A stretch of DNA of 64,000 nucleotides from an uncultured Thermoleophilia bacterium (GCA_963717285.1 CAVQVW010000002.1:516783-580782); one strand, 5' to 3'; shown: positions 15,987 through 37,851, numbered from the stretch's first letter. Notes: generated by a model not told the origin, from the letters alone. Numbers and translations are program-made.

Positions 15987-16047
15987 CCCCCATCGCCGAC
16001 GGTATGGCCACACTGGCCTCATGCCTCAGCCTCCTCCGCGCAAGGGT

Positions 16048-16824: not shown

Positions 16825-17199
16825 GGGCGCTCCTTCACTCGAATGGACGGGGATCACCGTGTGCTCGCCGCCCGTTCTGATGGCCCGCCTCCTCAGCGCC
16901 GCCGGGGTGCACGGCAACGACACCCGGTACGTGCGCAGGGAGGACGCCGTGCAGGTCACGCCTCGGCCTCGCGCCGTCACGATACCCGGAGCCGACCTCA
17001 CACGGTCAAGACCCCCCAGGGGTCACGATCCGCCGACAGGCTCGGGGCTCCCGGAACGTCAACCGACGGGCCACCGCTCTGCCGGTAGGGACAGAGATCG
17101 CCCGAGGGGTCCACGCCCGACCGTTGGGAGCATCCGTGGCAGCAGGGCCCGGCGGCGACCGCCCACCGCTCACGACCCTGGTCGTCCCGCCGCGCCGGC

Positions 17200-18195
17200 T
17201 CAGCCTGCCGCCAGCTCGCCCCGGTCGTTCATGGCCTCGATGCCGGCATGCGCGCCGGCACCCTCGAAGAGCGTGACGGCGCGCCAGCCCCTCAGCTCGC
17301 GAAGACGCACCCACAGCTCTCCGCCGATCGACTCGACGGCGCGCCCGCCCATGGCGCCAAGGACCGGCGCCTGCAGGACGCCGGCGGCGGCGCCGGAGCC
17401 GCGGATCTCGAGCTCCTTCGATCGGTCGCGAAGCACGACCCGGAAGGAGCCTGCCGTGCCCGTTTCGATCACTGCCAGCCAGGCGCCCGTGTAGGTCGCG
17501 AACCGATGCAGCCGCCCGTCGATCAGCATGCCCGCGATATGGCCCACGAAGCTTCCCGATACCCAGGGGATCCTGGCCACCGAGCAGGTGACTGACACGC
17601 CGGCCCGGGAGAAGTGGTTGGACTGGGCCCACACCCAGGAGCTGGGGAAGCTGCGTCCCCAGTCCTTCTCGATGTAGCCGCGTCCGCCGTGGAAATCGAT
17701 GTCCTCCCCATCGATGCTGAGCCTGCCGTCCAGGGAATGCTCCATGGAGAGCACGCCGTGATAGCACTCCATGCGCGGAACGTAGCGGTACCAGCCCATG
17801 ATGCCGGGGGAGCGCGCCGTCACCGGCCACGGGGCCCACGGTCCGAATCCCACGTGGCCGGACACGGTGCCGGCGTCGTCCCCCAAAGCGAGGCTCATCC
17901 CCTTCTCGGTAAACGTGCTGCCGCCGACGGTGACGGCGAACGGCGGCCGCAGTGCGAAACGGAAGGCGGCGGCCGGATACGAGAAGAAACGCGTACGACC
18001 TCCCTCATGGATGAGCTGGACGAACGACTGAGAGACACGCCCGTCCTCAGAGAACGACACGCCGGGGATGACGGCGACAGCGCGGCGCGACTCCCCGTCC
18101 ACGGCCTTGAAGTACCACCCCTCGAAGTAGCGGCGCTGCGTATCGCCGCCTTGATACAGGGCCGGGTTCCGCAGTCTTGTCAACGCGTCGAGCAT
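17200..18195 (-). CDS. tocopherol cyclase-family (PF14249-like) protein
   Basis: N-terminal RRYFEGWYFK motif characteristic of the tocopherol cyclase family, as recalled. GGAAGGA RBS 6 nt before ATG(MLDALTRL). The upstream 105 codons of the track ORF are Arg/Cys-rich and probably untranslated. Confidence 0.5.
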   Translation of the reverse strand: MLDALTRLRNPALYQGGDTQRRYFEGWYFKAVDGESRRAVAVIPGVSFSEDGRVSQSFVQLIHEGGRTRFFSYPAAAFRFALRPPFAVTVGGSTFTEKGMSLALGDDAGTVSGHVGFGPWAPWPVTARSPGIMGWYRYVPRMECYHGVLSMEHSLDGRLSIDGEDIDFHGGRGYIEKDWGRSFPSSWVWAQSNHFSRAGVSVTCSVARIPWVSGSFVGHIAGMLIDGRLHRFATYTGAWLAVIETGTAGSFRVVLRDRSKELEIRGSGAAAGVLQAPVLGAMGGRAVESIGGELWVRLRELRGWRAVTLFEGAGAHAGIEAMNDRGELAAG

Positions 18196-18446
18196 GGCGT
18201 CCTTCCCGAGTCGTGGAGTCGAGTCCTGGCTCCGTATTCCCACGGCACACATCGGCCTACCCCCGGGTCCGTGTGGGCCTCGAGAAGGAGCACCAGACGA
18301 CGCCCCGCAGGTGGACCCCCACCATAGCTGCTTGATACCGTGAACGGACCTACGCCCGTGGGAGGTCCGTGGACACCCGAGCAAGCGACGAGCCGGACGA
18401 TCAAGCACTCCCAACCGGCGATCCGACACCCGCCAGCAGCAACGAG

Positions 18447-22206: not shown

Positions 22207-22287
22207 CGCAGCGCGTGCGGACGACCCCACGACGCTTGGCGACGCTTGCCGGCGAGCGTCACGCGGGGGCATGGTAGCCTCACCGGC

Positions 22288-26012
<3,725 letters not shown>

Positions 26013-26025
<13 letters not shown>

Positions 26026-26309
26026 GCGCGGCGGCGCGCCTGTTGCCGCCGGCGCCGGCCGAGGAATGCGCCGACAGCCAGGCCGAGGAGGACACCGACG
26101 ACTACGGTGAAGACAAGCATCACCCAAAGGGCGAGGGTGAAGTGCCAGAACAGGAACGTGAACTCGACGCGGTAGGAATTCTGGAGGATGAAGACGATCA
26201 CTGCGAGGACGACCAGGGCGAGCACGACGAGCTTGATGATGCCGCCGGGAGAAGGGCCGGACCTCTCCTGAGTCGTACGCACTTGGACGGGCGGCTTCGT
26301 CGTGCTCAT
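26013..26309 (-). CDS. small two-TM membrane protein (DUF1049/LapA-like)
   Basis: 98 aa with two hydrophobic helices ([19 protein letters not shown]; [23 protein letters not shown]) and a basic C-terminus. Its 3' end overlaps the convergent oxoprolinase gene by 13 nt. Confidence 0.45.
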
Positions 26310-26420
26310 GCTGACCCCCTGGAAGTAGATGCCATCTGATTCGCCGCGCGGCCCCGCTCACCTTGCTGCTGCACGAGCTCCACGGCCTGCAAGAGAGTTT
26401 CCGGACCGAGTCACCCCTGA

Positions 26421-26451
26421 TTGGACTCGGGCGAGGGCGGACCGATATAAT
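26421..26451 (+). promoter_or_regulatory. candidate sigma70-type promoter of the hdr/met cluster
   Basis: TTGGAC (26421-26426), 19-nt spacer, TATAAT (26446-26451), about 85 nt upstream of the GAAGGAG RBS and the ATG at 26535. Confidence 0.3.
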
Positions 26452-26534
26452 CCGCGTGCACAGATGCATCGCAGCGTCTCGCGATCGCCCACCGTTCATG
26501 GGCCTGCTGCTGCGCAGTCTGCTGAAGGAGTGGT

Positions 26535-29500
26535 ATGTCGGGCACACCCCCGAAGTCCACCGGAGCCGCTCTCGTGCTGGGCGGAGGCGTCGCCGGGATC
26601 CAGTGTTCACTCGACCTGGCCGAAGGCGGCTACAAGGTCTACCTCGTCGAGCGCGCTCCTGCTCTCGGCGGGCACATGGCCCAGCTGGACAAGACGTTCC
26701 CGACCAACGACTGCTCGATGTGCACGCTGGCGCCCAAGCTGGTCGAGGCCGGCCGGCACCTGGACATCGATATGATCACGAACTCCGAGCTCATCGGCCT
26801 CCAAGGCGAACCCGGCCACTTCGAGGCCAACGTCCTCCATCACGCCCGCTACGTCGACCCGGATCTCTGCACGAGCTGCGGAGAATGCGTGCCCGTCTGC
26901 CCCGTGACCGTGCGCGACAGGTACAACGAGGGCCTGAGCGAGCGCAAGGCGATCTACAAGCTCTACCCCCAGGCCATCCCCAATGCCTACGCGGTCGACA
27001 AGCTCGGCTACGCGCCCTGCAAGAGCGCTTGCGCCGTGCAGACCTCGGCCCAGGGCTACGTCGCCCTGATCCGCGAGGGCAAGTTCGCCGAGGCCTACCG
27101 CGTGGCCGCGGAGCCCAATCCCTTCCCCTCGGTCTGCGGCCGCATCTGCGCCCACGCCTGCGAGACCGACTGCACGCGCGGCAAGGTCGACGAGCCGATC
27201 GCCATCGCCAGCCTCAAGCGCTTCGTCTGCGACGTCGCCGGCCCGACGGAGCTCCCGGAAGCGCTGCCGGTGCAGCACGCCGAGAAGATCGCGATCGTCG
27301 GCGGCGGCCCCGCCGGCCTCTCGGCCGCCCGCGACCTCGCACAGTACGGCTATGCGACCACCGTCTTCGAAGCGCTGCCGGTCGCCGGCGGCATGCTGCG
27401 CGTCGGCATCCCCGATCACCGCCTGCCGCACGACGTGCTGCAGCGCGAGATCGACCAGATCTGCGCCCTGGGCGTCGACCTGCGCCTCAACCAGCGCTGT
27501 GGCGCCGACTTCACCGTCGACTCGCTGCTGGCCGACGGCTACAGCGCCGTCTTCCTCGGCGTCGGACTGCAGAAGGGCCTGCCCTCTCCGGTGCCCGGCG
27601 ACGATCTCAGCGGGACCCTGCAGGCCGTCGACTTCCTGCGCGAGGTCAATCTCGAGCGCCCGCCGGCGGTCGGCGAGCGCGTGGTCGTGATCGGCGGCGG
27701 CGACGTGGCCTTCGACGCGGCGCGCAGCGCACTGCGCATCCAGACGCCCTCAGGCGGGCTTCCCGAGGTCACGATCGCCTACCGGCGTAGTGCCGCCCAG
27801 ATGCCTGCCTCTCCCGAGGAGATCGAGGAGGGCCTCGAGGAGCAGCTCAAGATCGAGTACCTGGTCGCTCCGGTCGAGATCCTGGGCACCGACGGCAGGG
27901 TCACCGCCATCAAGCTGCAGCGCATGGAGCTGGGCGAACCGGACGAGCGCGGCCGTCGTCGTCCCGTGCCCATCGAGGGCGCCTTCATCGAGATTCCCTG
28001 CGACACGGTGATCATGGCCATCGGCCAGGCCCTCGTGGACGACTTCGCCAAGGACCTCGAGGGCGTGGTCCTCGAGCGCGACCAGATCGCCGTCGACCCC
28101 GCCACGCTGGCCACCGGCCGCAAGGGCGTGTTCGCCGGCGGGGACGTCGCCGCGATCGGACCGCTGACGGCCATCGAGGCGATCGCCGCCGGCCGGCGCG
28201 CCGCCGCCGCCATGCACAACCACCTGCGCGGTGAGAGCCTCGTCAGCCTCTGGGAGGACTCCCTGCCGGTCGCCGAGCCCGACCCGGAGATCGTCGCCAG
28301 GACCGCCGCCCAGGGCCGCGTGCCCATGCCCGTGCACGACGGCGTCACACGGCGCACCAGCTTCGACGAGGTCCGCACGGGCTACACCGAGGAGCAGGCC
28401 GTGCAGGAAGCCTCGCGCTGCCTCGACTGCGCCATCTGCAGCGAGTGCATGGAGTGCGTACACGCCTGCGGTCCCGGCGCCCTGCTGCACGAGGAGCGCG
28501 ACCAGGAGATCGAGCTCGACGTGGGAGCGGTCGTGCTGGCCACGGGCTACGACCTCCACGACCCCGGCGCGAAGAGCGAGTACGGCTACCGGCGCTACCC
28601 CAACGTGTTCTCCGCGTTGGAGTACGAGCGCCTGCTCAGCGCCAGTGGCCCGACCATCGGGGCGCTCAAGCGGCGCAGCGACGGCGCGCACCCCAAGAGG
28701 ATCGCCTTCATCCAGTGCGTCGGCTCACGCGATCAGGAGCACGAGTACTGCTCCAGCGTGTGTTGCACGTTCGCCAACAAGCAGGCGATGCTCACCATCG
28801 ATCACGAGCCGGACTGCCGGCCCGAGATCTTCCTCATGGACATGCGAGCCCAGGGCAAGGGCTTCGACGCGTTCTACCAGCGCGCCGTCGCCAAGGGTGT
28901 GAGTTTCATCCGCTCACGACCCTCATACATCAAGGAAGACCCGCTGAGCCGCGACCTCCTGATCAGCTGGGAGGACGAAGCCGGCGGGCTGCACGAGTCT
29001 CGCTACGACATGGTCGTGCTCTCTGCCGGCCTGGAGCCCGCGCGCAAGGCGCAGGAAGCCGCCGGTCACGTCGGCATCGCGCTGAACCGCCACGGCTTCT
29101 GCCGGCTCAAGGAGTTCGCGCCGCTGCAGACGAGCCGTGAGGGCGTCTTTGTCGCCGGGCCGTTTGGCGAGCCCAAGGACATCCCCGACTCTGTCGCCCA
29201 AGCCTCCGCCGCAGCGGCGAAGGTGATGACCAGCCTCGCCGACGCACGCGGCACGCTGACCATAGAGCCCGCCCACCCGACAGAGCGCGACGTCAGCGAG
29301 GAGGAGCCGCGGGTCGGCGTCTTCGTCTGCCATTGCGGCACCAACATCGCCGGCGTAGTCGATGTCGAGAACGTGGCCGACTACGCGCATGGTCTCGCCA
29401 ACGTGGTGTACTCCACAGACTCGATCTACTCGTGCTCGAGCGACAGTCTGGCGCAGATCCGCGAGAAGATCGCGGAGCACGACCTCAACCGTGTCGTCGT

Positions 29501-30980
29501 GGCCAGCTGCACGCCGCGCACGCATGAGCCCATCTTCCAGGACACGCTGCGCGAGGCCGGCCTCAATCCGTACCTCTTTGAGATGGCCAACATCCGCGAC
29601 CAGGCGAGCTGGGTGCACAACACCGAGCCGGAGAGGGCGACCGACAAGGCCCGCGATCTCGTGCGCATGTCGGTCGCCCGCGCGCGCATGCTCGAACCTC
29701 TCTACAAAGTCGACGTCCCGCTCTCGCACGCCGCCGTCATCATAGGCGGCGGGATCGCCGGCATGACGGCCGCCGACGCGCTCGGCGAGATGGGCCACGA
29801 GGTGCATCTGGTGGAGCGCGGGCCGCGGCTCGGCGGCCACGCGCTGGAGCTCAGCCGCACGATCCGCGGAGGCGATCCCGCGGAGTACGCAGGGCGACTC
29901 GAGCAGAAGCTGGTCGAGAACCCCCGTGTGCGCATCCATCTCGAGTCGGAGCTGGCCGACTTCCAGGGTTTCATCGGCAACTTCTCCGGTGTCATCGTAG
30001 CCGCCGACGGCCAGCGCACGACGGTCGACCACGGCGTCGTGGTCGTGGCCACCGGGTCCCGCGAGGAGCGCCCCGCCCTCTATGGCCTGGGCGACAACGA
30101 GCGCATCGTCACGGGCATGGACCTCGAGAGCATGCTGAAGAACGAGGACCCGGCTCTCGACGAGGTCCGATCGGTCGGCTTCGTGCTCTGCGCCGGCTCG
30201 CTCGACGAGAGCCACCCCTACTGCTCGCGCACCTGCTGTCAGCAGAGCATCAAGAACGCCATTACCCTCAAGGAGCGCGACCCGGAACGGCCCGTCTACG
30301 TGTGGTTCAAGGAGATGCGCACCTTCGGCTTCCTCGAGGAGTACTACACGAAGGCCCGCGAGCTGGGCGTCATCTTCACGCGCTACGACAACGATCAGCC
30401 GCCGCAGGTGAGCTCGAACGGCAACGTCCGCGTCGCCCATCGCGACCCGCATCTCGGGCGCGACGTCGAACTGCCTCTGGACCTCCTGGTGCTGGCCACG
30501 CCGAGCGCGCCCGCCGACGGGGCCGCCGAGCTCAGCAAGCTGCTCAAGGTGCCGCTCACCAGCGAGGGCTTCTACCTCGAGGCGCACGTCAAACTGCGTC
30601 CCGTGGACTTTGGCAGCGAGGGCATCTTCCTCTGCGGCGCGGCGCACTACCCCAAGGGCCTGGACGAGGCGATCAGTCAGGGCTGCGCTGCGGCGGCGCG
30701 TGCGGCCGCCGTCCTGGCCAAGCCCGTCATCAAGGCCGGCGGCGTCGTCGCCGAGGTCGACGAGGACAAGTGCGCAGCCTGTCTGACCTGCGTGCGTATC
30801 TGCCCCTACGACGTCCCGCTCATCGACCCCGAGACGAAGAAGGCCAAGATCGAGTCGGCCGCCTGTCAAGGCTGCGGCATCTGCGTGAGCGAATGCCCGG
30901 TGAAGGCCATCGTCCTGCATCACTACACCGATGCGCAGGTCTTCGCCAAGGAAGACGCGCTCTTCATGGAGGTGAGCTGA
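26535..30980 (+). CDS. giant HdrA-like flavoprotein with inserted GltD/NfnB-type NAD(P)H-binding module and a second HdrA-like module (HdrL-like)
   Basis: 1481 aa. HdrA N-terminus VLGGGVAGIQ...LGGHMAQLDKTFPTNDCSMC plus CTSCGECVPVCP. GltD-family module NPFPSVCGRICAHACETDC, IAIVGGGPAGLSAA and VVVIGGGDVAFDAA. HdrA hallmarks CVGSRD, YCSSVCC and VFVCHCGTNI. A second FAD module VIIGGGIAGMTAADALGEMGHEVHLVERGPRLGGH with YCSRTCC. C-terminal 2x[4Fe-4S] ferredoxin CAACLTCVRICP...CQGCGICVSECP. Confidence 0.8.
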   Translation: MSGTPPKSTGAALVLGGGVAGIQCSLDLAEGGYKVYLVERAPALGGHMAQLDKTFPTNDCSMCTLAPKLVEAGRHLDIDMITNSELIGLQGEPGHFEANVLHHARYVDPDLCTSCGECVPVCPVTVRDRYNEGLSERKAIYKLYPQAIPNAYAVDKLGYAPCKSACAVQTSAQGYVALIREGKFAEAYRVAAEPNPFPSVCGRICAHACETDCTRGKVDEPIAIASLKRFVCDVAGPTELPEALPVQHAEKIAIVGGGPAGLSAARDLAQYGYATTVFEALPVAGGMLRVGIPDHRLPHDVLQREIDQICALGVDLRLNQRCGADFTVDSLLADGYSAVFLGVGLQKGLPSPVPGDDLSGTLQAVDFLREVNLERPPAVGERVVVIGGGDVAFDAARSALRIQTPSGGLPEVTIAYRRSAAQMPASPEEIEEGLEEQLKIEYLVAPVEILGTDGRVTAIKLQRMELGEPDERGRRRPVPIEGAFIEIPCDTVIMAIGQALVDDFAKDLEGVVLERDQIAVDPATLATGRKGVFAGGDVAAIGPLTAIEAIAAGRRAAAAMHNHLRGESLVSLWEDSLPVAEPDPEIVARTAAQGRVPMPVHDGVTRRTSFDEVRTGYTEEQAVQEASRCLDCAICSECMECVHACGPGALLHEERDQEIELDVGAVVLATGYDLHDPGAKSEYGYRRYPNVFSALEYERLLSASGPTIGALKRRSDGAHPKRIAFIQCVGSRDQEHEYCSSVCCTFANKQAMLTIDHEPDCRPEIFLMDMRAQGKGFDAFYQRAVAKGVSFIRSRPSYIKEDPLSRDLLISWEDEAGGLHESRYDMVVLSAGLEPARKAQEAAGHVGIALNRHGFCRLKEFAPLQTSREGVFVAGPFGEPKDIPDSVAQASAAAAKVMTSLADARGTLTIEPAHPTERDVSEEEPRVGVFVCHCGTNIAGVVDVENVADYAHGLANVVYSTDSIYSCSSDSLAQIREKIAEHDLNRVVVASCTPRTHEPIFQDTLREAGLNPYLFEMANIRDQASWVHNTEPERATDKARDLVRMSVARARMLEPLYKVDVPLSHAAVIIGGGIAGMTAADALGEMGHEVHLVERGPRLGGHALELSRTIRGGDPAEYAGRLEQKLVENPRVRIHLESELADFQGFIGNFSGVIVAADGQRTTVDHGVVVVATGSREERPALYGLGDNERIVTGMDLESMLKNEDPALDEVRSVGFVLCAGSLDESHPYCSRTCCQQSIKNAITLKERDPERPVYVWFKEMRTFGFLEEYYTKARELGVIFTRYDNDQPPQVSSNGNVRVAHRDPHLGRDVELPLDLLVLATPSAPADGAAELSKLLKVPLTSEGFYLEAHVKLRPVDFGSEGIFLCGAAHYPKGLDEAISQGCAAAARAAAVLAKPVIKAGGVVAEVDEDKCAACLTCVRICPYDVPLIDPETKKAKIESAACQGCGICVSECPVKAIVLHHYTDAQVFAKEDALFMEVS

Positions 30981-30981
30981 G

Positions 30982-31551
30982 GTGGCCGAGGAACCGCAGG
31001 CCGTCGCGGCCGAAGCGCCACAGAGACCGGTGGACCCGGACTTCGAGCCGGAGATCATCGTCTTCGCCTGCCACTACTGCGCCTACGCCGCCGCCGACCT
31101 GGCGGGCAGCATGCGATTGCAGTACCCATCCAATATCCGCATGATCAAGCTTCCCTGTACGGGCAAGCTCGAGATCATCCACCTGCTGCGCGCCATCGAG
31201 GGCGGCGCCGACGGCGTCTACGCCGCCGGCTGTCTCGAGGGCGAGTGCCACTATCTCAAGGGCAACCTGTGGGCCCGCCGACGCATCGACTACGTCCGGG
31301 GCCTGCTCGCCGAGCTCGAGCTCGAGCCCGAACGCGTCGCCATGTACAACATGTCGTCGGCCATGGGTGCGAAGTTCGCCGAGTCGGCGACCGAGTTCAC
31401 GGAGCGCATCAAACAGCTCGGTCCCAGCCCCGCAAGGCGGCCCGGCGTCAGTCCGCACCTCGCCGCTCGCGCAGCGTTCGGCGACATTGCCATGACCGAC
31501 GAGCAAGAGCCGGCCGCCGCAGCCACCGCCGAGGAAGGAACGCGCCCATGA
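30982..31551 (+). CDS. mvhD: MvhD/FlpD-like hydrogenase delta-subunit family iron-sulfur protein
   Basis: IIVFACHYCAYAAADLAGS...IKLPCTGKLE...GADGVYAAGCLEGECHY is the MvhD signature. The GTG start is 1 nt after the hdrA-like stop, with GGAGGTG 7 nt upstream. Confidence 0.75.
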   Translation: MAEEPQAVAAEAPQRPVDPDFEPEIIVFACHYCAYAAADLAGSMRLQYPSNIRMIKLPCTGKLEIIHLLRAIEGGADGVYAAGCLEGECHYLKGNLWARRRIDYVRGLLAELELEPERVAMYNMSSAMGAKFAESATEFTERIKQLGPSPARRPGVSPHLAARAAFGDIAMTDEQEPAAAATAEEGTRP

Positions 31552-32231
31552 TCACCGCTGAACGCAAACCCTTCGACGAGATCCTGTCGCTCGTTGAGGG
31601 CAAGAAGAAGGTCCTCGTCGCCGGCTGCGATACGTGCGTTGCCATCTGCCTCAGCGGCGGCGAGAAGGAGGCCGAGATCCTCGCCAGCGAGTTGCGCATC
31701 AAGGCGCAGCAGGAGGGCCGCGAGGTCGAGGTCGAGCACACCGCCGCCATCCGCCAGTGCGAGTGGGAGTACCTCGAGATGATCGCGCAGAAGATCGAGG
31801 CTGCCGATGTCGTGCTCAGCATGGCCTGCGGCATCGGCATCCAGAGCCTGGCCGAGAAGTTCGCCCCCAAGCTGGTCATGCCGGCCGTGAACACGAACAT
31901 GCTCGGCATGCCGCAGGAGCACGCGGTATGGCTCGAGCGCTGCGTCGCTTGCGGCGAGTGCCGCATCGGCCTCACCGGAGCCATCTGCCCCGTGGTGCGT
32001 TGCAGCAAGAGCCTCATGAACGGCCCGTGCGGCGGCTCGCATGACGGCCTCTGCGAGGTCACAGGTCCGGAGAAGGAGGAGCTCGAGTGCGCCTGGGCCC
32101 TCATCTGGGAGCGTCTCAAGGCCCAGGGCCGTGAAGAACTGATGTTCGCCGACCGGCCGCCGAAGGACTGGAGCAAGAGCAGCTCCGGCGGCCCGCGCAA
32201 GATGGTGCGTGAGGAGGCGAAGCCGGTATGA
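31548..32231 (+). CDS. metV: MetV-like small subunit of acetogen-type methylene-THF reductase (Cys-rich)
   Basis: Cys clusters CDTCVAICLSGGEKE...MACGIGIQSL...CVACGECRIGLTGAICPVVRCSKSLMNGPCGG. ATGA overlap with the mvhD stop. Confidence 0.6.
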   Translation: MITAERKPFDEILSLVEGKKKVLVAGCDTCVAICLSGGEKEAEILASELRIKAQQEGREVEVEHTAAIRQCEWEYLEMIAQKIEAADVVLSMACGIGIQSLAEKFAPKLVMPAVNTNMLGMPQEHAVWLERCVACGECRIGLTGAICPVVRCSKSLMNGPCGGSHDGLCEVTGPEKEELECAWALIWERLKAQGREELMFADRPPKDWSKSSSGGPRKMVREEAKPV

Positions 32232-33172
32232 CCGCAAGCGCGCTGAAGGCGGGCAGCAATCTCGAGAGGATCCTCGCGGCGGGCGGGTTCGCGGTCACCG
32301 GCGAGTGCGGTCCCCCCAAGAGCGCCGACGGCAGCGTCATCGAGGAGAAGGCCAAGCTCCTCAAGGGCTACGTCGATGCCGTCAACATCACCGACAACCA
32401 GACGGCCGTCGTCCGCGTCTGCTCCATGGCGTCCGGCTACGCGGCCCAGCAGAACGGCCTCGAGGCGATCATGCAGATGACCTGCCGCGATCGCAACCGC
32501 CTCGCCATGCAGGCCGATATCCTAGGCGCCTCGACCCTGGGCATCAAGAACATCCTCTGCCTCACCGGCGACCACATGAGCTTCGGCAACCACCCGCAAG
32601 CCAAGGGCGTGCACGACCTCGACGCTATCAACCTGATCAAGATGTACAGAGATATGCGCGACGAGAGCAGGTTTCAGTGCGGCGACGAGATGGCGGTCGC
32701 GCCGCAGCTCTATATCGGCTGCGCCGAGAACCCCTTCGCCGACCCGTTCGAGCTGCGCGCCCTGCGACTGAAGAAGAAGATCGAGGCGGGCGCCGACTTC
32801 ATGCAGACGCAGTGCATCTTCAACCTCCCCAAGTTCAAGAAATGGATGGAAGAGGTGCGCGCCCTGGGCCTGCACCAAGAGATCAAGATCCTCGCCGGCA
32901 TCACTCCGATCAAGGGCGCCGGCATGGCCAACTACATGAAGAAGTTCGTGCCCGGAATGGACGTGCCCCAGGAGATCATCGACCGCATCGCCGCTCAGGA
33001 GAAGGGCGCCCCACAGCAGGCGGAGGGCAAGAACCTCGCCGTCGAGATGATCAAGGAGATCGCCGAGATCGAGGGCGTCGCCGGGGTGCACATCATGGCA
33101 GTGGAGTGGGAGGCGGCGGTGCCGGAGATCGTGGAGGCCGCCGGACTCATGCCGCGGCCCGCCGTGGCGTGA
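32228..33172 (+). CDS. metF: 5,10-methylenetetrahydrofolate reductase (MetF, acetogen/Hdr-associated type)
   Basis: TIM-barrel MTHFR family: FAVTGECGPPKSADG...VDAVNITDNQTAV...LCLTGDH...FMQTQCIFNL. ATGA overlap with the metV stop. Confidence 0.8.
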   Translation: MTASALKAGSNLERILAAGGFAVTGECGPPKSADGSVIEEKAKLLKGYVDAVNITDNQTAVVRVCSMASGYAAQQNGLEAIMQMTCRDRNRLAMQADILGASTLGIKNILCLTGDHMSFGNHPQAKGVHDLDAINLIKMYRDMRDESRFQCGDEMAVAPQLYIGCAENPFADPFELRALRLKKKIEAGADFMQTQCIFNLPKFKKWMEEVRALGLHQEIKILAGITPIKGAGMANYMKKFVPGMDVPQEIIDRIAAQEKGAPQQAEGKNLAVEMIKEIAEIEGVAGVHIMAVEWEAAVPEIVEAAGLMPRPAVA

Positions 33173-33182
33173 GGAGCCAGGC

Positions 33183-33770
33183 ATGACCACCTGTACCCCG
33201 AACACCACACTGGCAGCGACCGTCAGCGACGGCTGCGGAGAGAACGTCTTCAAGTGCTACCAGTGCAAACGCTGCACCTCCGGCTGCCCCGTGGCACGGT
33301 ACACAGCGATGCATCCGGCGACGATCATACGCGCCGTCCAGCTCGGACAGCCGGACATGATCTTCGACGACAAGTTCCTTTGGCTGTGCACGGGGTGCGA
33401 GACGTGCACGACGCGGTGTCCGCAAGGCATCGATGTAGCTGCCGTGATTGACCAGCTCAAGATCATCGGCCGTCGCGACGGCCGCATCCCGGCCGACGCG
33501 CCGTTCGCCAACATGGTCAAGCTCAACTTCGAGTCGATCAGGCGCTGGGGCCGGCTCTTCGAGGTAGAGATGCTGATGCGCGACAAGATGACCCGCCCGA
33601 GCTCACTGTTCGACGACGTGGGAATGGGCCTCAAGATGCTGCGCAAGGGCAAGCTCGCCCTTCTCCCGGCGCGCGGCGCCGACAGGGCGGCCGTGGACCG
33701 CATGGTCAAGGCATCCGAGGCCATCAACAAGGCCAGGGCGCAGCCCCAGCAGGGGCAGGGAGAACGATGA
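33183..33770 (+). CDS. hdrC: heterodisulfide reductase subunit C-like (2x[4Fe-4S])
   Basis: CYQCKRCTSGCP and CTGCETCTTRCP ferredoxin motifs. GAGGAG RBS. Confidence 0.75.
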   Translation: MTTCTPNTTLAATVSDGCGENVFKCYQCKRCTSGCPVARYTAMHPATIIRAVQLGQPDMIFDDKFLWLCTGCETCTTRCPQGIDVAAVIDQLKIIGRRDGRIPADAPFANMVKLNFESIRRWGRLFEVEMLMRDKMTRPSSLFDDVGMGLKMLRKGKLALLPARGADRAAVDRMVKASEAINKARAQPQQGQGER

Positions 33771-34636
33771 TGGGCGCGAGGACGATGGCCTACTATCCCG
33801 GCTGCTCGCTGCACAGCACGGCTCGCGAGCTCGACGAGAGCTTCCGGGCCACGGCCGTCGCGCTCGGCCTTCAGCTGCAGGAGATCCCCGGCTGGGTGTG
33901 CTGCGGCAACACCGCCGTGCACTCGAGCAACCGGCTGCTGGCCGCTGCCCTGCCGGTGAGCGAGCTCGCCAAGGTCGAGCAGCTCATGGGGCTCACGAGC
34001 GTCGCCGTCCCGTGCGCCGCCTGCTTCAGCCGATTCATGGCCGGGGCCCATGCGATGCAGGACCAGGAGGCCGCAGCCGACATCGCGGCTGTGGTCGGCC
34101 ACCCCTACGAAGGCACCGTGACGATCCGCAACCTCGTCGACGTGTACTACGACGAGATCGGTCTTGAGGCCCTCAAGGAACGGGCGGTCCGGCCGTTCGG
34201 CGGGCTCAAGGTCGCCTCATACTACGGCTGCCTGTTGGCCCGACCGCCGAAGGTCACCCTCGCCGAGGACCCGGAGTACCCGACACACATGGACGATGTC
34301 GTCGAGACCCTGGGGTGCGCGCCGATCCAGTGGAACTACAAGACCGACTGCTGCGGCGCCAGCCTGGCTGTCTGTGAGCAGGACATGGTGATAGACCTCA
34401 CTCACAGGATCCTGCGCGACGCCCGAGACTGCGGTGCCGAAGCCGTCGCCGTCGCCTGTCCGCTCTGCCAAGTCAACCTCGACACGCGCCAGGACGGGGT
34501 GGCCAAGAAGTACGGCGACTGGCAGCGAATGCCCATCATCTACCTGAGCCAGCTGGTCGGCCGCGCGATCGGCGTCGACGACGCCCGGCTCGGACTCAGC
34601 AAGCACATGGTCGACGTCACTGCGGCGATGCGCTGA
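33767..34636 (+). CDS. hdrB: heterodisulfide reductase subunit B-like (CCG domains)
   Basis: AYYPGCSL...WVCCGNT and YYGCLLARPP...CCGASL...ACPLCQVNLD are duplicated CCG cysteine-rich domains. ATGA overlap with the hdrC stop. Confidence 0.8.
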   Translation: MMGARTMAYYPGCSLHSTARELDESFRATAVALGLQLQEIPGWVCCGNTAVHSSNRLLAAALPVSELAKVEQLMGLTSVAVPCAACFSRFMAGAHAMQDQEAAADIAAVVGHPYEGTVTIRNLVDVYYDEIGLEALKERAVRPFGGLKVASYYGCLLARPPKVTLAEDPEYPTHMDDVVETLGCAPIQWNYKTDCCGASLAVCEQDMVIDLTHRILRDARDCGAEAVAVACPLCQVNLDTRQDGVAKKYGDWQRMPIIYLSQLVGRAIGVDDARLGLSKHMVDVTAAMR

Positions 34637-34646
34637 CGGCTGCCGC

Positions 34647-35024
34647 TCACGCCTGCGTCGTCGCCTGGTGCACGCCGATGCGATTGCCCTCGCTGTCTTT
34701 GAAGAAGCCGATGCTGCCGATCATCTCCCCCATGAAGGTGACCGGCGTGAGCACCTCACCGCCGGCCGCGAGCGCCCGAGCCATCATGCCTGCGGCGTCG
34801 CCGTTGCTGTTGAGGTAGATCGTGCAGCCGTCGGCACTCGGCCGCCGGCCCTCGCTGAGCTCAAGATCGCCGGTCACCTCGTCCGTCCCCCCAGGTAGCA
34901 GCGCCACGGTGCCGTCGGTGCCGTCCATGAGCGCGATGTCCGCCTGGAGCACAGCGCCGTAGAAGGCGCGAGCGCGGTCCATATCCGTGACTGGGATATC
35001 CGCCCAGACTATCGTGTTGGCCAT
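34647..35024 (-). CDS. VOC-family (glyoxalase/bleomycin-resistance fold) protein
   Basis: 125 aa with IVWADIPVTDMDRARAFYGAVL...GFFKDSEGNRIGVH, typical of the VOC fold. Confidence 0.6.
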   Translation of the reverse strand: MANTIVWADIPVTDMDRARAFYGAVLQADIALMDGTDGTVALLPGGTDEVTGDLELSEGRRPSADGCTIYLNSNGDAAGMMARALAAGGEVLTPVTFMGEMIGSIGFFKDSEGNRIGVHQATTQA

Positions 35025-35203
35025 GTCGTCCTCCTTGCTCGCCGGTCTGATGGGAAGAGCATCACCGCGCCTCAGCCCCTCGAAACGCCGGTCCCCCCGA
35101 TCGCCTCTTTCCCTCCGTCAGCCCCTGCGTCCTGCCCGCAAGAGCACGCGGCGAGTATGATGTGACCCGACGGAGGACGACATCCAGAAGCGAGGGAACC
35201 GCC

Positions 35204-36388
35204 ATGGTGGATATCCAGATCTACACACGAGAGTGGTGCCCGTACTGCGCCAAGGCCAAGGCCCTTCTGCGCGCGAAAGGGCTCGAGTGGCGCGAGTTGG
35301 ATGTGACCCGCAACAAGGAACTGCAGCGCGAGATGCTCGAGCGCTCCGGACGCCGCACCGTGCCCGAGATCTTCCTCGGCGGCAAGCTTCTCGGCGGCTA
35401 CGACGACCTTGCCCGCCTCAACGCCTCCGGCGAACTCGATGGCCTGCTCGGCCTGGCCCCGGCCGAATTCAAGACCATCTACGATGTCGCGATCATCGGC
35501 GGCGGGCCGGCCGGACTCACCGCGGCCATGTACGCGGCGCGCAAGAGCCTCAGCACGATCCTCGTAGCCGCAGACATCGGCGGGCAGCTCAGCACGTCGC
35601 ACGAGGTCGCCAACTACCCGGGCTACGAGAGCATCACTGGTCCGGATCTTGTGCAGAGGCTGTTCGCGCAGGCCAGGCAATACGGCGTGACCGAGCTCGT
35701 CGGCGAACGGGTGGCCAGCGTGCGCGTCGACGGCCGGGCCAAGGTCCTCGAGCTCGAGTCCGGACGCGAGATCTGCTCGCTGACGCTGATCATCGCCAGC
35801 GGCGTGCAGAAGCGGCACCTCAACGTGCCCGGCGAGAAGGAGCTCTCCGGCGTCGGTGTCTTCTACTGCTCCACGTGCGACGGACCGCTCTTCCAGGGAC
35901 TCGACGTCATGATCGTCGGCGGCGGCAATTCCGCCATGGAGGCCGCTCTTGAGCTGAGCGCCATCGCGCACAAGGTCTACCTGGTAGCCCTCGAGGGCCT
36001 CACCGGGGACGGCGTCCTGCAGGACAGAGTCAATGCCAGCCCAGACATCGAGGTCCTGCCGCACCACAAGGCGAAGGAGATCCACGGTACCAGCCGGGTG
36101 GACGGCGTCACGGTGTTCGATCGTGAGACAGGCGAAGAGACGCGGCTCGCCGCCGACGGCGTGTTCGTCGAGGTCGGCTTCTTCCCCAACACCGGCTTCG
36201 CCCTCGATCTGGTGGACACGAACAAGGTCGGAGAGATCGTCGTCGACCGCCGCTGCCGAACGGGCGTGCGCGGCGTGTTCGCAGCGGGCGACTGCACGGA
36301 CATCGAAGACAAGCAGGTCGTGATCTCCGCCGGCGAGGGTGCCAAGGCGGCGCTCGTGGCCTTCGAGTACCTGATGCTCCAATACTGA
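35204..36388 (+). CDS. glutaredoxin-thioredoxin reductase fusion protein
   Basis: N-terminal Grx (IQIYTREWCPYCAKAK...TVPEIFLGGKLLGGYDDL) fused to a low-Mr TrxR (YDVAIIGGGPAGLTAAMYAAR, redox CSTCDG, MIVGGGNSAMEAA, GVFAAGDC). Start taken at MVDIQIY. Confidence 0.75.
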   Translation: MVDIQIYTREWCPYCAKAKALLRAKGLEWRELDVTRNKELQREMLERSGRRTVPEIFLGGKLLGGYDDLARLNASGELDGLLGLAPAEFKTIYDVAIIGGGPAGLTAAMYAARKSLSTILVAADIGGQLSTSHEVANYPGYESITGPDLVQRLFAQARQYGVTELVGERVASVRVDGRAKVLELESGREICSLTLIIASGVQKRHLNVPGEKELSGVGVFYCSTCDGPLFQGLDVMIVGGGNSAMEAALELSAIAHKVYLVALEGLTGDGVLQDRVNASPDIEVLPHHKAKEIHGTSRVDGVTVFDRETGEETRLAADGVFVEVGFFPNTGFALDLVDTNKVGEIVVDRRCRTGVRGVFAAGDCTDIEDKQVVISAGEGAKAALVAFEYLMLQY

Positions 36389-36484
36389 GAGTGGGCCGCG
36401 CCGCCGTCCGCCACCGGAGACGGACGTTCCACCCATGAGACCGTCGGGTAGGGTGTAGGCGAACGACGACAAGGAGCCCGACTC

Positions 36485-36898
36485 ATGACCACCATCCCGC
36501 AAGAGTTGCACGACCTTCTGGCCGGCGGGCACAACGTCTGGATAGCTACGGTCGGTCCAGACGGCATGCCGAACGTCTCCATCAAGAGCAGCGGCGCCTT
36601 GCTCGACGACGAGCACCTGTACTTCGCCGACATGTTCTCTCACAAGACGCGGGAGAACCTCGAAAACGACAACCGCGTCGCCGTCGGCATCCACGACCCG
36701 GAGAGGAAGGTCGCGATGCAGGTCAAGGGCCATGCGGACCTCATCGACCACGGCGAGGTCTTCGACCAGGTCAACGAGCAGCTCAAGCCGACCAGCGCCG
36801 CACAGCATCTTCCGCCAATGAAGTACGTGGTGCGCATCACCGTGGACTCCGTGTGGGACATGGGCCCCGGGCCACACGCCGGCGACGAGCTCCGCTAG
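36485..36898 (+). CDS. pyridoxamine 5'-phosphate oxidase-family (FMN/F420-binding split-barrel) protein
   Basis: 137 aa with ELHDLLAGGHNVWIATVGPDGMPNVS...LYFADMF, the PPOX split-barrel pattern. Confidence 0.6.
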   Translation: MTTIPQELHDLLAGGHNVWIATVGPDGMPNVSIKSSGALLDDEHLYFADMFSHKTRENLENDNRVAVGIHDPERKVAMQVKGHADLIDHGEVFDQVNEQLKPTSAAQHLPPMKYVVRITVDSVWDMGPGPHAGDELR

Positions 36899-36996
36899 TG
36901 GCCCAAGCCGGGTCAAGTCCCCGGTGATCCCCGAGCGAAGGAGCAGGCCAGATCGCCGCCCTGAGTCTCGACCCAGCCTGGTACGACGCGATCGCC

Positions 36997-37851
36997 GTGC
37001 GCCGTTCACGCCGCCGGTTCTCCCGTCGCGACGTCGAGCCGGCGGCGATCGACGCCCTGCAGACCTTCTGCCAGACGTTCCAGCTCTCTCCCGGCGTGCG
37101 CGTCACCCTCATCGAAGGCGGCGCCGACGTCTACACGGGGATCCTCGACCGCAGAGTGGGGGCATACGGCCGTGTCGAGGGCGCCCCTTGGACGGCGGCC
37201 TTCGTCGGACCTGAGGGCAGTGAGGTCGAGGTGGGCTACGTCGGCGAGGCCTTCATCCTCGAGGCCACACGCCTCGGACTCGGCACCTGCTGGGTCGCCG
37301 GGATGTTCGACCGCAAGACGGTGGAGCCATTGGCCTCCCTTCGGACAGGAGAGCAGGTCGTGGCGGTCACTCCGGTAGGCCACCCCGTCGAACGCAAGCA
37401 GATCATGGAGCGCATGATGAGCGCCGCCGTGCGCTCCGCCGCTCGCCGGCAGGTCGAGGAGATAGCCCCCGGACTGAAGCGCGGATTCGGCCCGGACCAC
37501 GAGGCTTGGCCCGACTGGGCCGTGACGGCGGTGGAGGCCGCGCGGCTGGCGCCCTCAGGTGCCAACCGTCAACCGTGGCGCTTCCATCTTCGAGACGACT
37601 CCCTGGTCATGAGCCGAGCCGAGGAGGTGTACTGGACCGCGCCCATCGACTTCGGAATCGCCATGTTGCACGTGGAGCTGGGCGCCGGCCACCAGGGCAT
37701 CTGCGGCGCCTGGGAGCGTCTACCCGATCCGAAGGTCGCCCGCTTCTTCCCCGTCAACGATTGGCCGGAGGCGAGCCAGGCCGAGGAACAGGGGAAGACA
37801 CCCGTTCCACCGGGGTCCTCGCCGGAGCCACAGACCTCACCCTCCAGCTGA
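36997..37851 (+). CDS. nitroreductase-family protein
   Basis: RRSRRRFSRRDV at the N-terminus (typical RRSxRxF), and GLGTCWV...PSGANRQPWRF. The true start may be an upstream non-canonical codon: GAAGGAG at 36937 and ATC at 36952 are in frame. Confidence 0.6.
   Translation: MRRSRRRFSRRDVEPAAIDALQTFCQTFQLSPGVRVTLIEGGADVYTGILDRRVGAYGRVEGAPWTAAFVGPEGSEVEVGYVGEAFILEATRLGLGTCWVAGMFDRKTVEPLASLRTGEQVVAVTPVGHPVERKQIMERMMSAAVRSAARRQVEEIAPGLKRGFGPDHEAWPDWAVTAVEAARLAPSGANRQPWRFHLRDDSLVMSRAEEVYWTAPIDFGIAMLHVELGAGHQGICGAWERLPDPKVARFFPVNDWPEASQAEEQGKTPVPPGSSPEPQTSPSS

What the first reader, a model, noticed from the sequence alone, without database searches (positions are those of the whole stretch)
26421..34636. 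Hdr/MvhD/MetFV six-gene cluster: putative NAD(P)H-linked, possibly electron-bifurcating methylene-THF reductase
Six co-directional, translationally coupled genes: hdrA-like, mvhD, metV, metF, hdrC, hdrB. Stop/start junctions are 1-4 nt, with ATGA overlaps at 31548, 32228 and 33767. This reproduces the subunit set of the MetFV-HdrABC-MvhD methylene-THF reductase described from the acetogen Moorella thermoacetica. The gene order differs from the Moorella order as recalled (hdrCBA-mvhD-metVF). The HdrA position is taken by a 1481-aa fusion protein carrying its own GltD/NfnB-like NAD(P)H module. If functional, the complex could draw electrons directly from NAD(P)H, the donor that was left unresolved for the Moorella enzyme. 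Finding it in a high-GC genome with otherwise ordinary aerobic-looking housekeeping genes is unexpected. It implies C1/THF-linked redox metabolism: Wood-Ljungdahl-type CO2 reduction, reverse methyl oxidation, or a bifurcating NADH sink.
Basis: partly seen in the sequence, partly recalled or inferred. Interest (0 to 1): 0.78.

Follow-up and report, generated by a model that had tools for sequence, protein, structure and literature searches.

The report
Moorella-type Hdr-linked methylene-THF reductase operon
This is a real six-gene operon for the already described Hdr-type (type IV) methylene-tetrahydrofolate reductase, here in an uncultured Thermoleophilia actinobacterium; the kind is known, but its NAD(P)H-binding module looks NADPH-type and has been copied between two paralogous hdrA genes.

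Summary
Six co-directional, tightly packed genes (hdrA, mvhD, metV, metF, hdrC, hdrB) lie at 26535-34636 behind one promoter-like site, and every cofactor motif is intact.

The 1481-aa HdrA fusion does not differ from Moorella. Moorella thermoacetica HdrA, retrieved here, is 1487 aa, collinear and 46% identical, with the same GltD/NfnB insertion and the same E/K flavin signatures. The other five subunits are 39-61% identical to their Moorella counterparts. For Moorella, NADH is the known donor; the unresolved partner is the third one. The gene order hdrA-mvhD-metVF-hdrCB is already published for Actinobacteria and recurs in Chloroflexota. Large HdrA genes followed by mvhD-metV-metF occur in about 30 of 80 genomes from many anaerobic phyla.

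Two further points emerged:
- The window's nucleotide site reads AYRRS, as in NADPH-binding NfnB structures. Moorella and 74%-identical Thermoleophilia orthologues read C(L/I)E, the NADH-like form.
- Residues 118-669 are 100% identical to a second large HdrA, apparently on the same contig. That paralogue's close relatives sit in Hdr-Mvh [NiFe]-hydrogenase clusters, while the rest of the protein is only about 50% identical. This points to recurrent gene conversion of the module.

Whether the genome has a Wood-Ljungdahl pathway could not be tested.

The parts
26422..26451 (+). Promoter-like site TGGACT-18 nt-TATAAT, 84 nt upstream of the hdrA ATG.
   Evidence: It is the only sigma-70-type match in 25900-35200. 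A -10-like hexamer aligns in L001 and L085. No Rfam riboswitch lies in the leader.
26535..30980 (+). hdrA: a large, 1481-aa tandem HdrA with an inserted GltD/NfnB-like NAD(P)H:FAD module. The E698/K749 and E1198/K1240 flavin signatures are present.
   Evidence: Pfam. Four collinear stretches align to methanogen HdrA 5odc_A. It is 46% identical and collinear with Moorella thermoacetica HdrA P0168. Cofactor cysteines are invariant in alignment A1.
27003..28433 (+). GltD/NfnB-like module (aa ~157-633), inserted between the two CxxCxxCxxxC motifs of the first unit's inserted ferredoxin domain. The FAD site is GGGPAG (aa 256-261). The NAD(P)H site is GGGDVA (aa 387-392), followed by Y416-R417-R418.
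   Evidence: PDB hits: 4ylf_B NfnB at E=2e-91, plus 9bov_A and 9n5u_A. The YRR motif aligns with YRR(T/S) in five solved NfnB/GltD-type proteins. Moorella reads ACLES at this position.
26886..28541 (+). Putative gene-conversion tract (aa 118-669). It is 552 aa exactly identical to paralogue P0128 aa 106-657.
   Evidence: Longest exact shared stretch. Domain-wise identities. Nucleotide mosaic against L003, L002 and L001.
29301..30977 (+). Second HdrA unit (aa 923-1481): an MvhD-like N-terminal domain, a TrxR-like FAD domain without an inserted ferredoxin domain, and a C-terminal 2x[4Fe-4S] domain.
   Evidence: Alignment to 5odc_A residues 2-152 and 497-652. The boundary matches Moorella aa 922-1487 as described in PMC9430772.
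30982..31551 (+). mvhD ([2Fe-2S] electron-transfer subunit). GTG start 1 nt after the hdrA stop. It has an Ala/Pro/Glu-rich C-terminal tail.
   Evidence: Pfam FlpD, E=4e-47. 61% identical to Moorella MvhD. Five Cys at 30, 33, 59, 84 and 89.
31548..32231 (+). metV (iron-sulfur subunit of MetVF).
   Evidence: Pfam DUF5981/MTHFR_C, E=7e-31. 50% identical to Moorella MetV. All 13 Cys are conserved in 37-39 of 39 homologues.
32228..33172 (+). metF (flavin-binding catalytic subunit).
   Evidence: Pfam MTHFR, E=2e-47. 56% identical to Moorella MetF. E26, D115 and Q194 align with conserved residues of Thermus MTHFR 1v93. E. coli-type NCBIfam models score far below cutoff.
33183..33770 (+). hdrC (2x[4Fe-4S]).
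   Evidence: Pfam Fer4_8/Fer4_17. C25xxC28xxC31xxxC35 and C69xxC72xxC75xxxC79 are conserved in 19 of 19 homologues. 39% identical to Moorella HdrC.
33767..34636 (+). hdrB (two CCG motifs for noncubane [4Fe-4S] clusters).
   Evidence: Two Pfam CCG domains. C13...C45C46...C83xxC86 and C155...C195C196...C231xxC234 are conserved in 20 of 20 homologues. 40% identical to Moorella HdrB.

Best explanation
The locus is one operon encoding a type IV (Hdr-type) methylene-tetrahydrofolate reductase, MetFV-HdrABC-MvhD. This is the same kind of complex proposed for Moorella thermoacetica.

**Shown here**
- All six subunits are full-length homologues of the Moorella subunits.
- Every predicted cofactor ligand is present.
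- HdrA is a tandem of two HdrA units. A GltD/NfnB-like NAD(P)H:FAD module is inserted into the ferredoxin domain of the first unit.
- Both thioredoxin-reductase-like flavin sites carry the Glu/Lys signature that the literature associates with bifurcating HdrA flavins.

**Inferred mechanism**
1. A pyridine nucleotide is oxidised at the GltD module.
2. Electrons pass through its two [4Fe-4S] clusters and the split ferredoxin-domain clusters to the HdrA flavins.
3. They continue through MvhD and HdrC/HdrB to MetV, and then to the MetF flavin, which reduces methylene-THF to methyl-THF.
4. As for Moorella, a third, still unknown redox partner is probably co-reduced or co-oxidised by flavin-based bifurcation or confurcation.

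**Inferred from a motif only**
This enzyme prefers NADPH (AYRRS at aa 415-419). Moorella and many orthologues carry the acidic C(L/I)E motif, and the Moorella HdrA oxidises NADH.

**Inferred from mosaic identity**
The nucleotide module is exchanged by gene conversion with a paralogous hdrA. That paralogue's close relatives lie in Hdr-Mvh [NiFe]-hydrogenase clusters, so both complexes would share one nucleotide specificity.
For: - ORFs, junctions and domains.
- Direct comparison with the Moorella locus L087 (acsB-acsC-RACo-cooC-acsD-acsE-hdrC-hdrB-hdrA-mvhD-metV-metF): HdrA 46% identical over 8-1480 against 10-1487; MvhD 61%; MetV 50%; MetF 56%; HdrC 39%; HdrB 40%.
- Architecture against the 5odc_A HdrA structure.
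- E698/K749 and E1198/K1240 align with Moorella E696/K750 and E1204/K1246.
- Cysteine ligands are conserved across 19-39 homologues from many phyla.
- MetF catalytic residues are conserved.
- The cluster is conserved as a unit in Thermoleophilia relatives (L001, L084, L085, L086).
- The same order occurs in Chloroflexota and one other genome (L008, L016, L017, L048).
- The literature defines type IV and NADH oxidation by Moorella HdrA (PMC9430772; PMC13040438).
- NADPH-type motif.
- Mosaic identity.
Against: - No biochemistry exists for this organism. Even for Moorella the complete reaction has never been reconstituted.
- Moorella HdrA is about equally similar (44-52%) to the window HdrA and to the Mvh-linked paralogue. 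Assignment to the MTHFR complex therefore rests on operon context, not on HdrA sequence.
- No Wood-Ljungdahl genes lie in the 64-kb window or within 10 kb of the cluster in four relatives, so the physiological direction and role are open.
- The NADPH prediction rests on a short motif.
Its DNA could not be retrieved.
Confidence: 0.8

Rival explanations
1. The enzyme is the same, but the role is not acetogenic. The complex would be the cell's housekeeping or anabolic methylene-THF reductase supplying methyl-THF for methionine and SAM. Alternatively it would run oxidatively, taking methyl groups from demethylation or from acetyl-CoA cleavage. Either way it would not be a catabolic step of CO2 reduction.
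For: - No fhs, folD, acs or cooS genes lie in the 64-kb window, nor within 10 kb of the cluster in L001, L084, L085 or L086.
- In Moorella, by contrast, the cluster directly follows acsB-acsE.
- No other metF is present in the window.
- MetFV has anabolic roles in Methanosarcinaceae according to PMC9012536.
Against: - No SAM or THF riboswitch and no met genes flank the operon.
- A six-subunit, roughly 30-iron-sulfur-cluster complex is costly for a purely anabolic step.
- The lineage also carries Hdr-Mvh hydrogenase clusters, and in one relative a group-4-like hydrogenase sits next to the operon. These are typical of anaerobic energy metabolism.
- Thermoleophilia MAGs with near-complete Wood-Ljungdahl pathways exist.
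Confidence: 0.3
2. The HdrBC module is catalytic rather than a wire. The complex would couple methylene-THF reduction, or NAD(P)H oxidation, to reduction or oxidation of a thiol/disulfide pair such as a protein or low-molecular-weight disulfide. That pair would be the missing third partner.
For: - Both CCG motifs, which form the heterodisulfide-reducing noncubane clusters in methanogen HdrB, are fully conserved.
- A dithiol co-reductant was raised as a possibility for the Sporomusa enzyme (PMC9430772).
- A glutaredoxin-thioredoxin-reductase fusion gene lies about 500 bp downstream on the same strand (35162-36388).
Against: - Dihydrolipoate and glutathione had no effect in Sporomusa.
- About 20 hdrA-mvhD-metVF loci in other phyla have no hdrCB detected within the retrieved flanks.
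- A divergent glyoxalase gene separates the Grx-TrxR gene from the operon, and it is not conserved next to the cluster in relatives.
Confidence: 0.15
3. The cluster, or the identical 1.66-kb tract inside hdrA, is an artefact of a metagenome assembly: a chimera, or repeat homogenisation during polishing.
For: - The source is an uncultured-organism assembly.
- An exact 552-aa identity between paralogues is unusual.
- The DNA of the second copy could not be inspected.
Against: - The same six genes in the same order, with shared flanking genes (P-type ATPase, HhH-GPD glycosylase, LapA-domain gene), occur in independent assemblies.
- Composition and GC3 are uniform.
- The mosaic pattern recurs in other assemblies with a different module type. 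L001 against L002 is 85-95% nucleotide-identical inside the tract and 42-73% outside. The window against L003 is 89-97% inside.
- No assembler would convert a 60%-identical segment into an identical one.
Confidence: 0.04

Closest known systems
Moorella (Neomoorella) thermoacetica MetFV-HdrABC-MvhD, the type IV / Hdr-type MTHFR (Mock et al. 2014, as summarised in PMC9430772 and PMC13040438)
   Same: - Same six subunits, all full-length homologues at 39-61% identity.
- Same HdrA length and domain order, 1487 against 1481 aa.
- Same GltD insertion point and the same E/K flavin signatures.
- Same tight operon packing.
   Different: - Gene order is hdrCBA-mvhD-metVF in Moorella and hdrA-mvhD-metVF-hdrCB here.
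- The Moorella cluster directly follows the acs genes. Here the operon stands alone among housekeeping genes.
- The nucleotide site reads ACLES in Moorella, which oxidises NADH, and AYRRS here, which is NADPH-like.
Hakuba hot-spring Actinobacteria hdrA-mvhD-metVF-hdrCB cluster (Merino et al. 2020, PMC7325909)
   Same: Same phylum and the identical published gene order. It was likewise interpreted as a Moorella-like MTHFR.
   Different: It comes from other actinobacterial clades (UBA1414 and relatives) with a Wood-Ljungdahl pathway in the same genomes.
Sporomusa ovata Hdr-type MTHFR (Kremp et al. 2022, PMC9430772)
   Same: MetVF plus HdrCBA and MvhD, with physical interaction shown by pulldown. 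It poses the same open question about the co-substrate.
   Different: S. ovata HdrA is 101 kDa, lacks the GltD module, and has one E/K flavin site. Its complex is partly membrane-associated and H2-driven.
HdrL of Desulfobacterium autotrophicum (PMC2702500) and the HdrA-NfnB fusions HdrA9-11 of ANME-1 (PMC9012536)
   Same: HdrA fused to a glutamate-synthase/NfnB-like NAD(P)H module and followed by mvhD. In ANME-1 the roughly 500-aa insertion interrupts the inserted ferredoxin domain, as it does here.
   Different: Different partner genes: dsr or fdh genes, or none. They are not linked to metVF in those descriptions.
Methanogen HdrABC-MvhAGD (5odc, 8rvu)
   Same: HdrA, HdrB, HdrC and MvhD folds and cluster ligands are shared.
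   Different: There is no MvhAG hydrogenase in this operon, no CoM-CoB substrate is expected, and HdrA is duplicated and carries the NAD(P)H module. A paralogous hdrCB-hdrA-mvhD-mvhGA cluster exists in close relatives.

Membership tests
Type IV (Hdr-type) MTHFR, MetFV-HdrABC-MvhD | metF, metV, hdrA, hdrB, hdrC and mvhD encoded together in one co-directional cluster. | tested here: met
   Six ORFs at 26535-34636 with spacers of -4 to 10 nt, each with its Pfam domain.
Type IV (Hdr-type) MTHFR, MetFV-HdrABC-MvhD | Each subunit is a full-length homologue of the Moorella thermoacetica subunit. | tested here: met
   HdrA 46%, MvhD 61%, MetV 50%, MetF 56%, HdrC 39% and HdrB 40% identity to proteins of locus L087.
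Type IV (Hdr-type) MTHFR, MetFV-HdrABC-MvhD | Moorella-type large HdrA: two TrxR-like units, a GltD/NAD(P)H module interrupting the first, no inserted ferredoxin domain in the second, and E/K signatures in both. | tested here: met
   Alignment to 5odc_A, alignment to P0168 and the description in PMC9430772. The signature residues are E698/K749 and E1198/K1240.
Type IV (Hdr-type) MTHFR, MetFV-HdrABC-MvhD | Intact cofactor ligands: HdrB 2x CCG, HdrC 2x CxxCxxCxxxC, the MetV Cys clusters, and the MetF catalytic Glu/Asp/Gln. | tested here: met
Type IV (Hdr-type) MTHFR, MetFV-HdrABC-MvhD | The six proteins form a physical complex with NADH:viologen and viologen:methylene-THF activities. | not testable with these tools
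   This needs biochemistry. Only the Moorella and Sporomusa enzymes have been examined.
Type IV (Hdr-type) MTHFR, MetFV-HdrABC-MvhD | Context features of the Moorella locus, which are not defining: the order hdrCBA-mvhD-metVF, adjacency to acs genes, and an NADH-type nucleotide motif. | tested here: not met
   The order here is hdrA-mvhD-metVF-hdrCB, with no acs genes in 64 kb. The motif is AYRRS rather than ACLES. Other loci show both orders and both motifs, so these features vary within the family.
E. coli-type (type I) MetF, NAD(P)H-dependent, no partner subunits | Scores as a member of the bacterial MetF equivalog models and stands alone without metV. | tested here: not met
   PRK09432 scores 42.8 bits (cutoff 382). 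TIGR00676 scores 87.7 bits (cutoff 293.7). E. coli MetF structures score only about 35 bits. The metV stop overlaps the metF start by 4 nt.
Methanogen heterodisulfide reductase HdrABC-MvhAGD | HdrABC associated with the MvhA and MvhG [NiFe]-hydrogenase subunits. | tested here: not met
   No hydrogenase genes are in the operon or the window. HdrA scores below the NCBIfam equivalog cutoffs. A separate paralogous cluster in close relatives does have mvhGA.
HdrA-NfnB/GltD fusion proteins (HdrL; ANME-1 HdrA9-11) | A roughly 500-aa NfnB/GltD-like module inserted in the inserted ferredoxin domain of HdrA, with mvhD downstream. | tested here: met
   The insertion lies between 5odc_A residues 290 and 292 and is flanked by C112-C122 and C635-C645. 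NfnB 4ylf_B matches at E=2e-91. Literature.

The most novel reading that the evidence does not exclude
The NAD(P)H-entry module of the large HdrA behaves as an exchangeable cassette. In this Thermoleophilia lineage a 1.66-kb segment (aa 118-669) has been repeatedly copied by gene conversion between the MTHFR-linked hdrA and an hdrA of the type found in Hdr-Mvh hydrogenase clusters.

As a result, both complexes in a genome carry the same module. That module switched from an NADH-like (CIEDD) to an NADPH-like (YRR) type between relatives whose HdrA proteins are about 74% identical.

If real, this implies selection for a shared pyridine-nucleotide pool linking H2 oxidation to methylene-THF reduction. 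It also provides natural NADH and NADPH variants of the type IV enzyme.
Probability: 0.4. Interest if true: 0.55.

Novelty: new member of a known kind. Interest (0 to 1): 0.33.

Why it matters
The type IV methylene-THF reductase is the least understood step of the Wood-Ljungdahl pathway. Its third redox partner, and hence its contribution to energy conservation, is still unknown after more than ten years.

This locus does not solve that. It does show that the enzyme is a conserved, stand-alone operon in soil or sediment Thermoleophilia, away from any acs genes.

It also shows that close orthologues differ in the predicted nucleotide specificity of an otherwise conserved HdrA. Such natural NADPH-type and NADH-type pairs, together with the apparent module sharing with an Hdr-Mvh hydrogenase, could guide experiments on electron flow through these complexes.

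For annotation, the practical point is that a large HdrA with a GltD insertion is the normal Moorella-type subunit, not a new fusion.

Tried and rejected
- **Source contig.** Exact-sequence look-ups of the window HdrA (P0001) and of the paralogue P0128 returned nothing. The source contig beyond the window and the DNA of the second hdrA copy could not be read.
- **Genome scan.** It gave neither the source genome nor an organism name. The class-level assignment to Thermoleophilia rests on source names of 66-84% identical proteins.
- **Primary paper.** Mock et al. 2014 is not held. Its content is cited through PMC9430772 and PMC13040438.
- **Wood-Ljungdahl genes.** A genome-wide search for CODH/ACS, fhs and folD was not possible with these tools. 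Using contig-length coincidences in protein searches was considered and dropped, because no closely related AcsB query was available.
- **Riboswitch.** None was found upstream: Rfam at the gathering threshold over the whole window, and at E<=5 over 25950-26650, gave only chance-level hits. Aligning five upstream regions showed only a -10-like hexamer and the ribosome-binding region.
- **HdrA orthology.** Using HdrA sequence alone to assign it to Moorella was rejected. Moorella HdrA is equally close to the Mvh-linked paralogue.
- **Solved structures.** No MetV and no Hdr-MetFV complex is in the PDB.
- **Structure prediction.** Not attempted, because HdrA exceeds the 1200-aa limit.

Full report
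**Observation.** Six co-directional ORFs occupy 26535-34636 on the + strand.
- The junctions are a 1-nt spacer (hdrA/mvhD), a 10-nt spacer with a GGAG (metF/hdrC), and ATGA overlaps at 31548, 32228 and 33767.
- Pfam assigns the ORFs as follows:
  - ORF 1: a GltD-like Fer4_20 plus Pyr_redox_2 segment, a second Rossmann fold and ferredoxin motifs.
  - ORF 2: FlpD/MvhD.
  - ORF 3: DUF5981 (MTHFR_C, MetV).
  - ORF 4: MTHFR.
  - ORF 5: Fer4_8/Fer4_17.
  - ORF 6: two CCG domains.
- The only sigma-70-like match in 9.3 kb is TGGACT-18-TATAAT at 26422-26451.
- GC3 of 0.86-0.92 matches the rest of the window, and composition is flat.

The description is therefore correct apart from the 10-nt spacer.

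**Surroundings.** The rest of the 64 kb is housekeeping:
- acs followed by two Pat-like acyl-CoA-synthetase/GNAT genes;
- SRP RNA, dnaX, ybaB and recR;
- a P-type ATPase, a fused oxoprolinase, and a glutaredoxin-thioredoxin-reductase fusion;
- a trp operon, secA, prfB, ahcY and mtnA.

There are no Wood-Ljungdahl genes and no respiratory genes of any kind. 'Aerobic-looking' is therefore not an observation the sequence supports. The leader carries no known riboswitch.

**Source organism.** The HdrA protein is identical to a public protein on an 871,685-bp contig. More than 100 full-length relatives at 66-88% identity exist, and those that carry names are mostly labelled Thermoleophilia or Actinobacteria.

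The six-gene cluster is conserved in the same order in relatives at 70-74% HdrA identity; a 66% relative on a truncated contig shows only the first four genes (L001, L084, L085, L086). L001 and L084 also share the upstream P-type ATPase and HhH-GPD glycosylase genes, and L084 the LapA-domain gene. This argues against a chimera.

**Comparison with Moorella.** Kremp et al. 2022 (PMC9430772) describe Moorella HdrA as follows:
- 162.8 kDa and 1487 aa;
- an N-terminal extra ferredoxin domain and TrxR-like domain, interrupted by a [4Fe-4S]/FAD/NAD(P)H GltD domain;
- a C-terminal part (aa 922-1487) lacking the inserted ferredoxin domain;
- Glu/Lys signatures at E696/K750 and E1204/K1246;
- robust NADH:benzyl viologen activity.

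I retrieved that protein (P0168) by searching with a Thermincola homologue, and then its locus L087, which reads acsB-acsC-RACo-cooC-acsD-acsE-hdrC-hdrB-hdrA-mvhD-metV-metF.
- The window HdrA aligns collinearly with it at 46% identity over 8-1480 against 10-1487.
- E698/K749 and E1198/K1240 sit at the equivalent positions.
- MvhD, MetV, MetF, HdrC and HdrB are 61, 50, 56, 39 and 40% identical over full length.
- Against the methanogen structure 5odc_A, the window protein is two HdrA units. The GltD module is inserted between residues 290 and 292 of the inserted ferredoxin domain. This is the arrangement described for ANME-1 HdrA-NfnB fusions (PMC9012536) and, more generally, for HdrL (PMC2702500).

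The fusion is therefore the normal Moorella-type subunit and not a departure from it. For Moorella, NADH is the accepted donor; the unknown is the third partner.

- MetF is not E. coli-type. PRK09432 scores 42.8 against a 382-bit cutoff and TIGR00676 scores 87.7 against 293.7, and E. coli structures score about 35 bits. MetF still keeps the catalytic Glu, Asp and Gln.
- The HdrB CCG cysteines (10), HdrC cysteines (8) and MetV cysteines (13) are all present. They are conserved in 19-39 homologues from many phyla.
- Chimerism is excluded by the synteny described above.

**Distribution.**
- A scan of species-representative genomes found at least 597 loci with a large HdrA. The 80 kept span Desulfobacterota, Chloroflexota, Bacillota, Acidobacteriota, Planctomycetota, Bathyarchaeia, Thermoplasmata, ANME-2 and others.
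- About 30 of these have mvhD-metV-metF immediately after hdrA.
- Four show exactly the window's order (L008 Thermoflexus, L016 and L017 Anaerolineae, L048).
- Three show the Moorella order (L035, L041, L071).
- Merino et al. 2020 already reported hdrA-mvhD-metVF-hdrCB in Actinobacteria.
- Thermoleophilia MAGs with near-complete Wood-Ljungdahl pathways are published.

The cluster is a new member of a known and widespread kind.

**Nucleotide site.** After the second Rossmann glycine motif (GGGDVA, aa 387-392), the window reads VTIAYRRSAAQMPAS.
- All five best-matching solved NfnB/GltD-type proteins read YRR(T/S)xxEM(P/T)A at the aligned position: 9bov_A, 9n5u_A, 5jca_L, 4ylf_B and 8oh5_C.
- Moorella reads HLACLESREEMPA.
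- Thermoleophilia orthologues at 75% identity or less read TINCIEDDxSVPAS.

An acidic residue at the end of the second beta-strand is the classical NAD(H) discriminator, and Arg-Arg is the NADP(H) signature. That is established Rossmann-fold knowledge, applied here by inference. The Moorella enzyme, which carries the acidic motif, oxidises NADH, consistent with the rule.

I therefore predict NADPH preference for the window enzyme. Both motif types occur among metVF-linked hdrA genes of other phyla, and one Desulfobacteraceae MAG has one of each (L030, L031).

**Mosaic evolution.** A cluster look-up showed a second large HdrA, P0128 (1493 aa), on a contig of the same length of 871,685 bp.
- Its 90%-identity cluster mate P0112 and the relative P0118 lie in hdrC-hdrB-hdrA-mvhD-mvhG-mvhA-hycI-hyp clusters (L003, L002).
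- Window HdrA residues 118-669 are exactly identical to P0128 residues 106-657, a run of 552 aa corresponding to window DNA 26886-28541.
- Residues 1-117 are 57% identical and residues 670-1250 are 49% identical.

The same pattern holds in a lineage with the other module type. P0025 (metVF-linked) and P0118 (Mvh-linked) are 92% identical in the module and 49% in the core. Yet the Mvh-linked cores of P0128, P0112 and P0118 are 96-98% identical to each other, while their modules are only 61% identical.

At the DNA level:
- window against L003: 89-97% identical over gene nucleotides ~450-1950 (85% in the 301-450 boundary bin), and 46-72% elsewhere;
- L003 against L002: the reverse pattern;
- L001 against L002: 85-95% inside the tract.

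The simplest reading is recurrent gene conversion of the nucleotide module from the resident metVF-linked hdrA into the Mvh-linked hdrA.

Two caveats apply:
- the same-contig inference rests on contig length alone;
- the DNA of P0128 could not be fetched.

**Mechanism.**
- *Shown:* subunit homology, cofactor ligands, domain order and operon structure.
- *Inferred:* NAD(P)H, predicted NADPH, donates to the GltD FAD. Electrons then run through the split ferredoxin-domain clusters to the first HdrA flavin, on through the MvhD-like domain or MvhD to the second flavin, and through the C-terminal clusters, HdrC and HdrB to MetV and the MetF flavin. A third partner is coupled by flavin-based bifurcation or confurcation, as proposed for Moorella.
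- *Undetermined:* whether the physiological role is CO2 reduction, methyl oxidation or anabolic supply. In Moorella the cluster abuts the acs genes. Here and in four relatives it does not.

**Verdict.** It is a type IV MTHFR, but the claimed differences from Moorella and the claimed surprise come from mis-recollection. Novelty is a new member of a known kind. Interest is modest, raised slightly by the NADPH-type motif and the module exchange between paralogues.

Noticed in passing
window 26886-28541 (hdrA aa 118-669); L001, L002, L003: The GltD/NfnB module is 100% identical in protein sequence to a second large HdrA (P0128), apparently on the same 871,685-bp contig. The flanking parts are only 49-57% identical. 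In other assemblies the module type also tracks the lineage rather than the paralogue, which suggests recurrent gene conversion.
   Followed up: partly
L002 8611-17395 and L003 8611-17012: Close relatives carry hdrC-hdrB-large hdrA-mvhD-mvhG-mvhA-hycI-hypFCDE clusters. This amounts to an Hdr-Mvh [NiFe]-hydrogenase whose HdrA also has the NAD(P)H module. The cores of these hdrA genes are 96-98% identical between assemblies whose metVF-linked hdrA cores are only about 81% identical, which hints at recent horizontal spread of the hydrogenase cluster.
   Followed up: partly
L030 and L031 (same Desulfobacteraceae MAG, JASFEQ01): One genome holds two hdrA-mvhD-metV-metF clusters. One has the YRR (NADPH-like) nucleotide motif and the other the CLE (NADH-like) motif.
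   Followed up: no
L084 1-5940: In a 71%-identical Thermoleophilia relative (GCA_040776965.1), a group-4-like membrane hydrogenase or complex-I-like gene set lies about 4 kb upstream of the operon. It comprises Proton_antipo_M, NADHdh, Complex1_30kDa/49kDa and Oxidored_q6 genes. This recalls the Ech coupling proposed for Moorella. It is absent from the window.
   Followed up: no
window 3523-11269: An acetyl-CoA synthetase gene is followed by two tandem ~900-aa genes. Each fuses an ADP-forming acyl-CoA-synthetase-like region to a C-terminal GNAT domain. They look like Pat-type protein acetyltransferases, duplicated.
   Followed up: no
window 11353-11617 and 47586-47658: A bacterial large SRP RNA (196.8 bits) lies directly upstream of dnaX-ybaB-recR. 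A tRNA gene lies on the minus strand.
   Followed up: no
window 35162-37851: Downstream of the operon, beyond a divergent glyoxalase-family gene, lie a glutaredoxin-thioredoxin-reductase fusion, a PNPOx-family flavoprotein and a TM1586-type nitroreductase, all on the + strand. This possible thiol/redox-stress group is not conserved next to the operon in relatives.
   Followed up: partly
window 22246-26025: A 1259-aa fused HyuA-HyuB (oxoprolinase/hydantoinase) gene sits between the HhH-GPD glycosylase gene and the LapA-domain gene. Those two genes are adjacent in relative L084, so this is probably a lineage-specific insertion just upstream of the operon.
   Followed up: no
window 14754-18513 (minus strand): Three ORFs with high GC3 (422, 317 and 437 aa). 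The first two have no Pfam match at E<=1e-5. The third has only a partial tocopherol-cyclase-like match.
   Followed up: no
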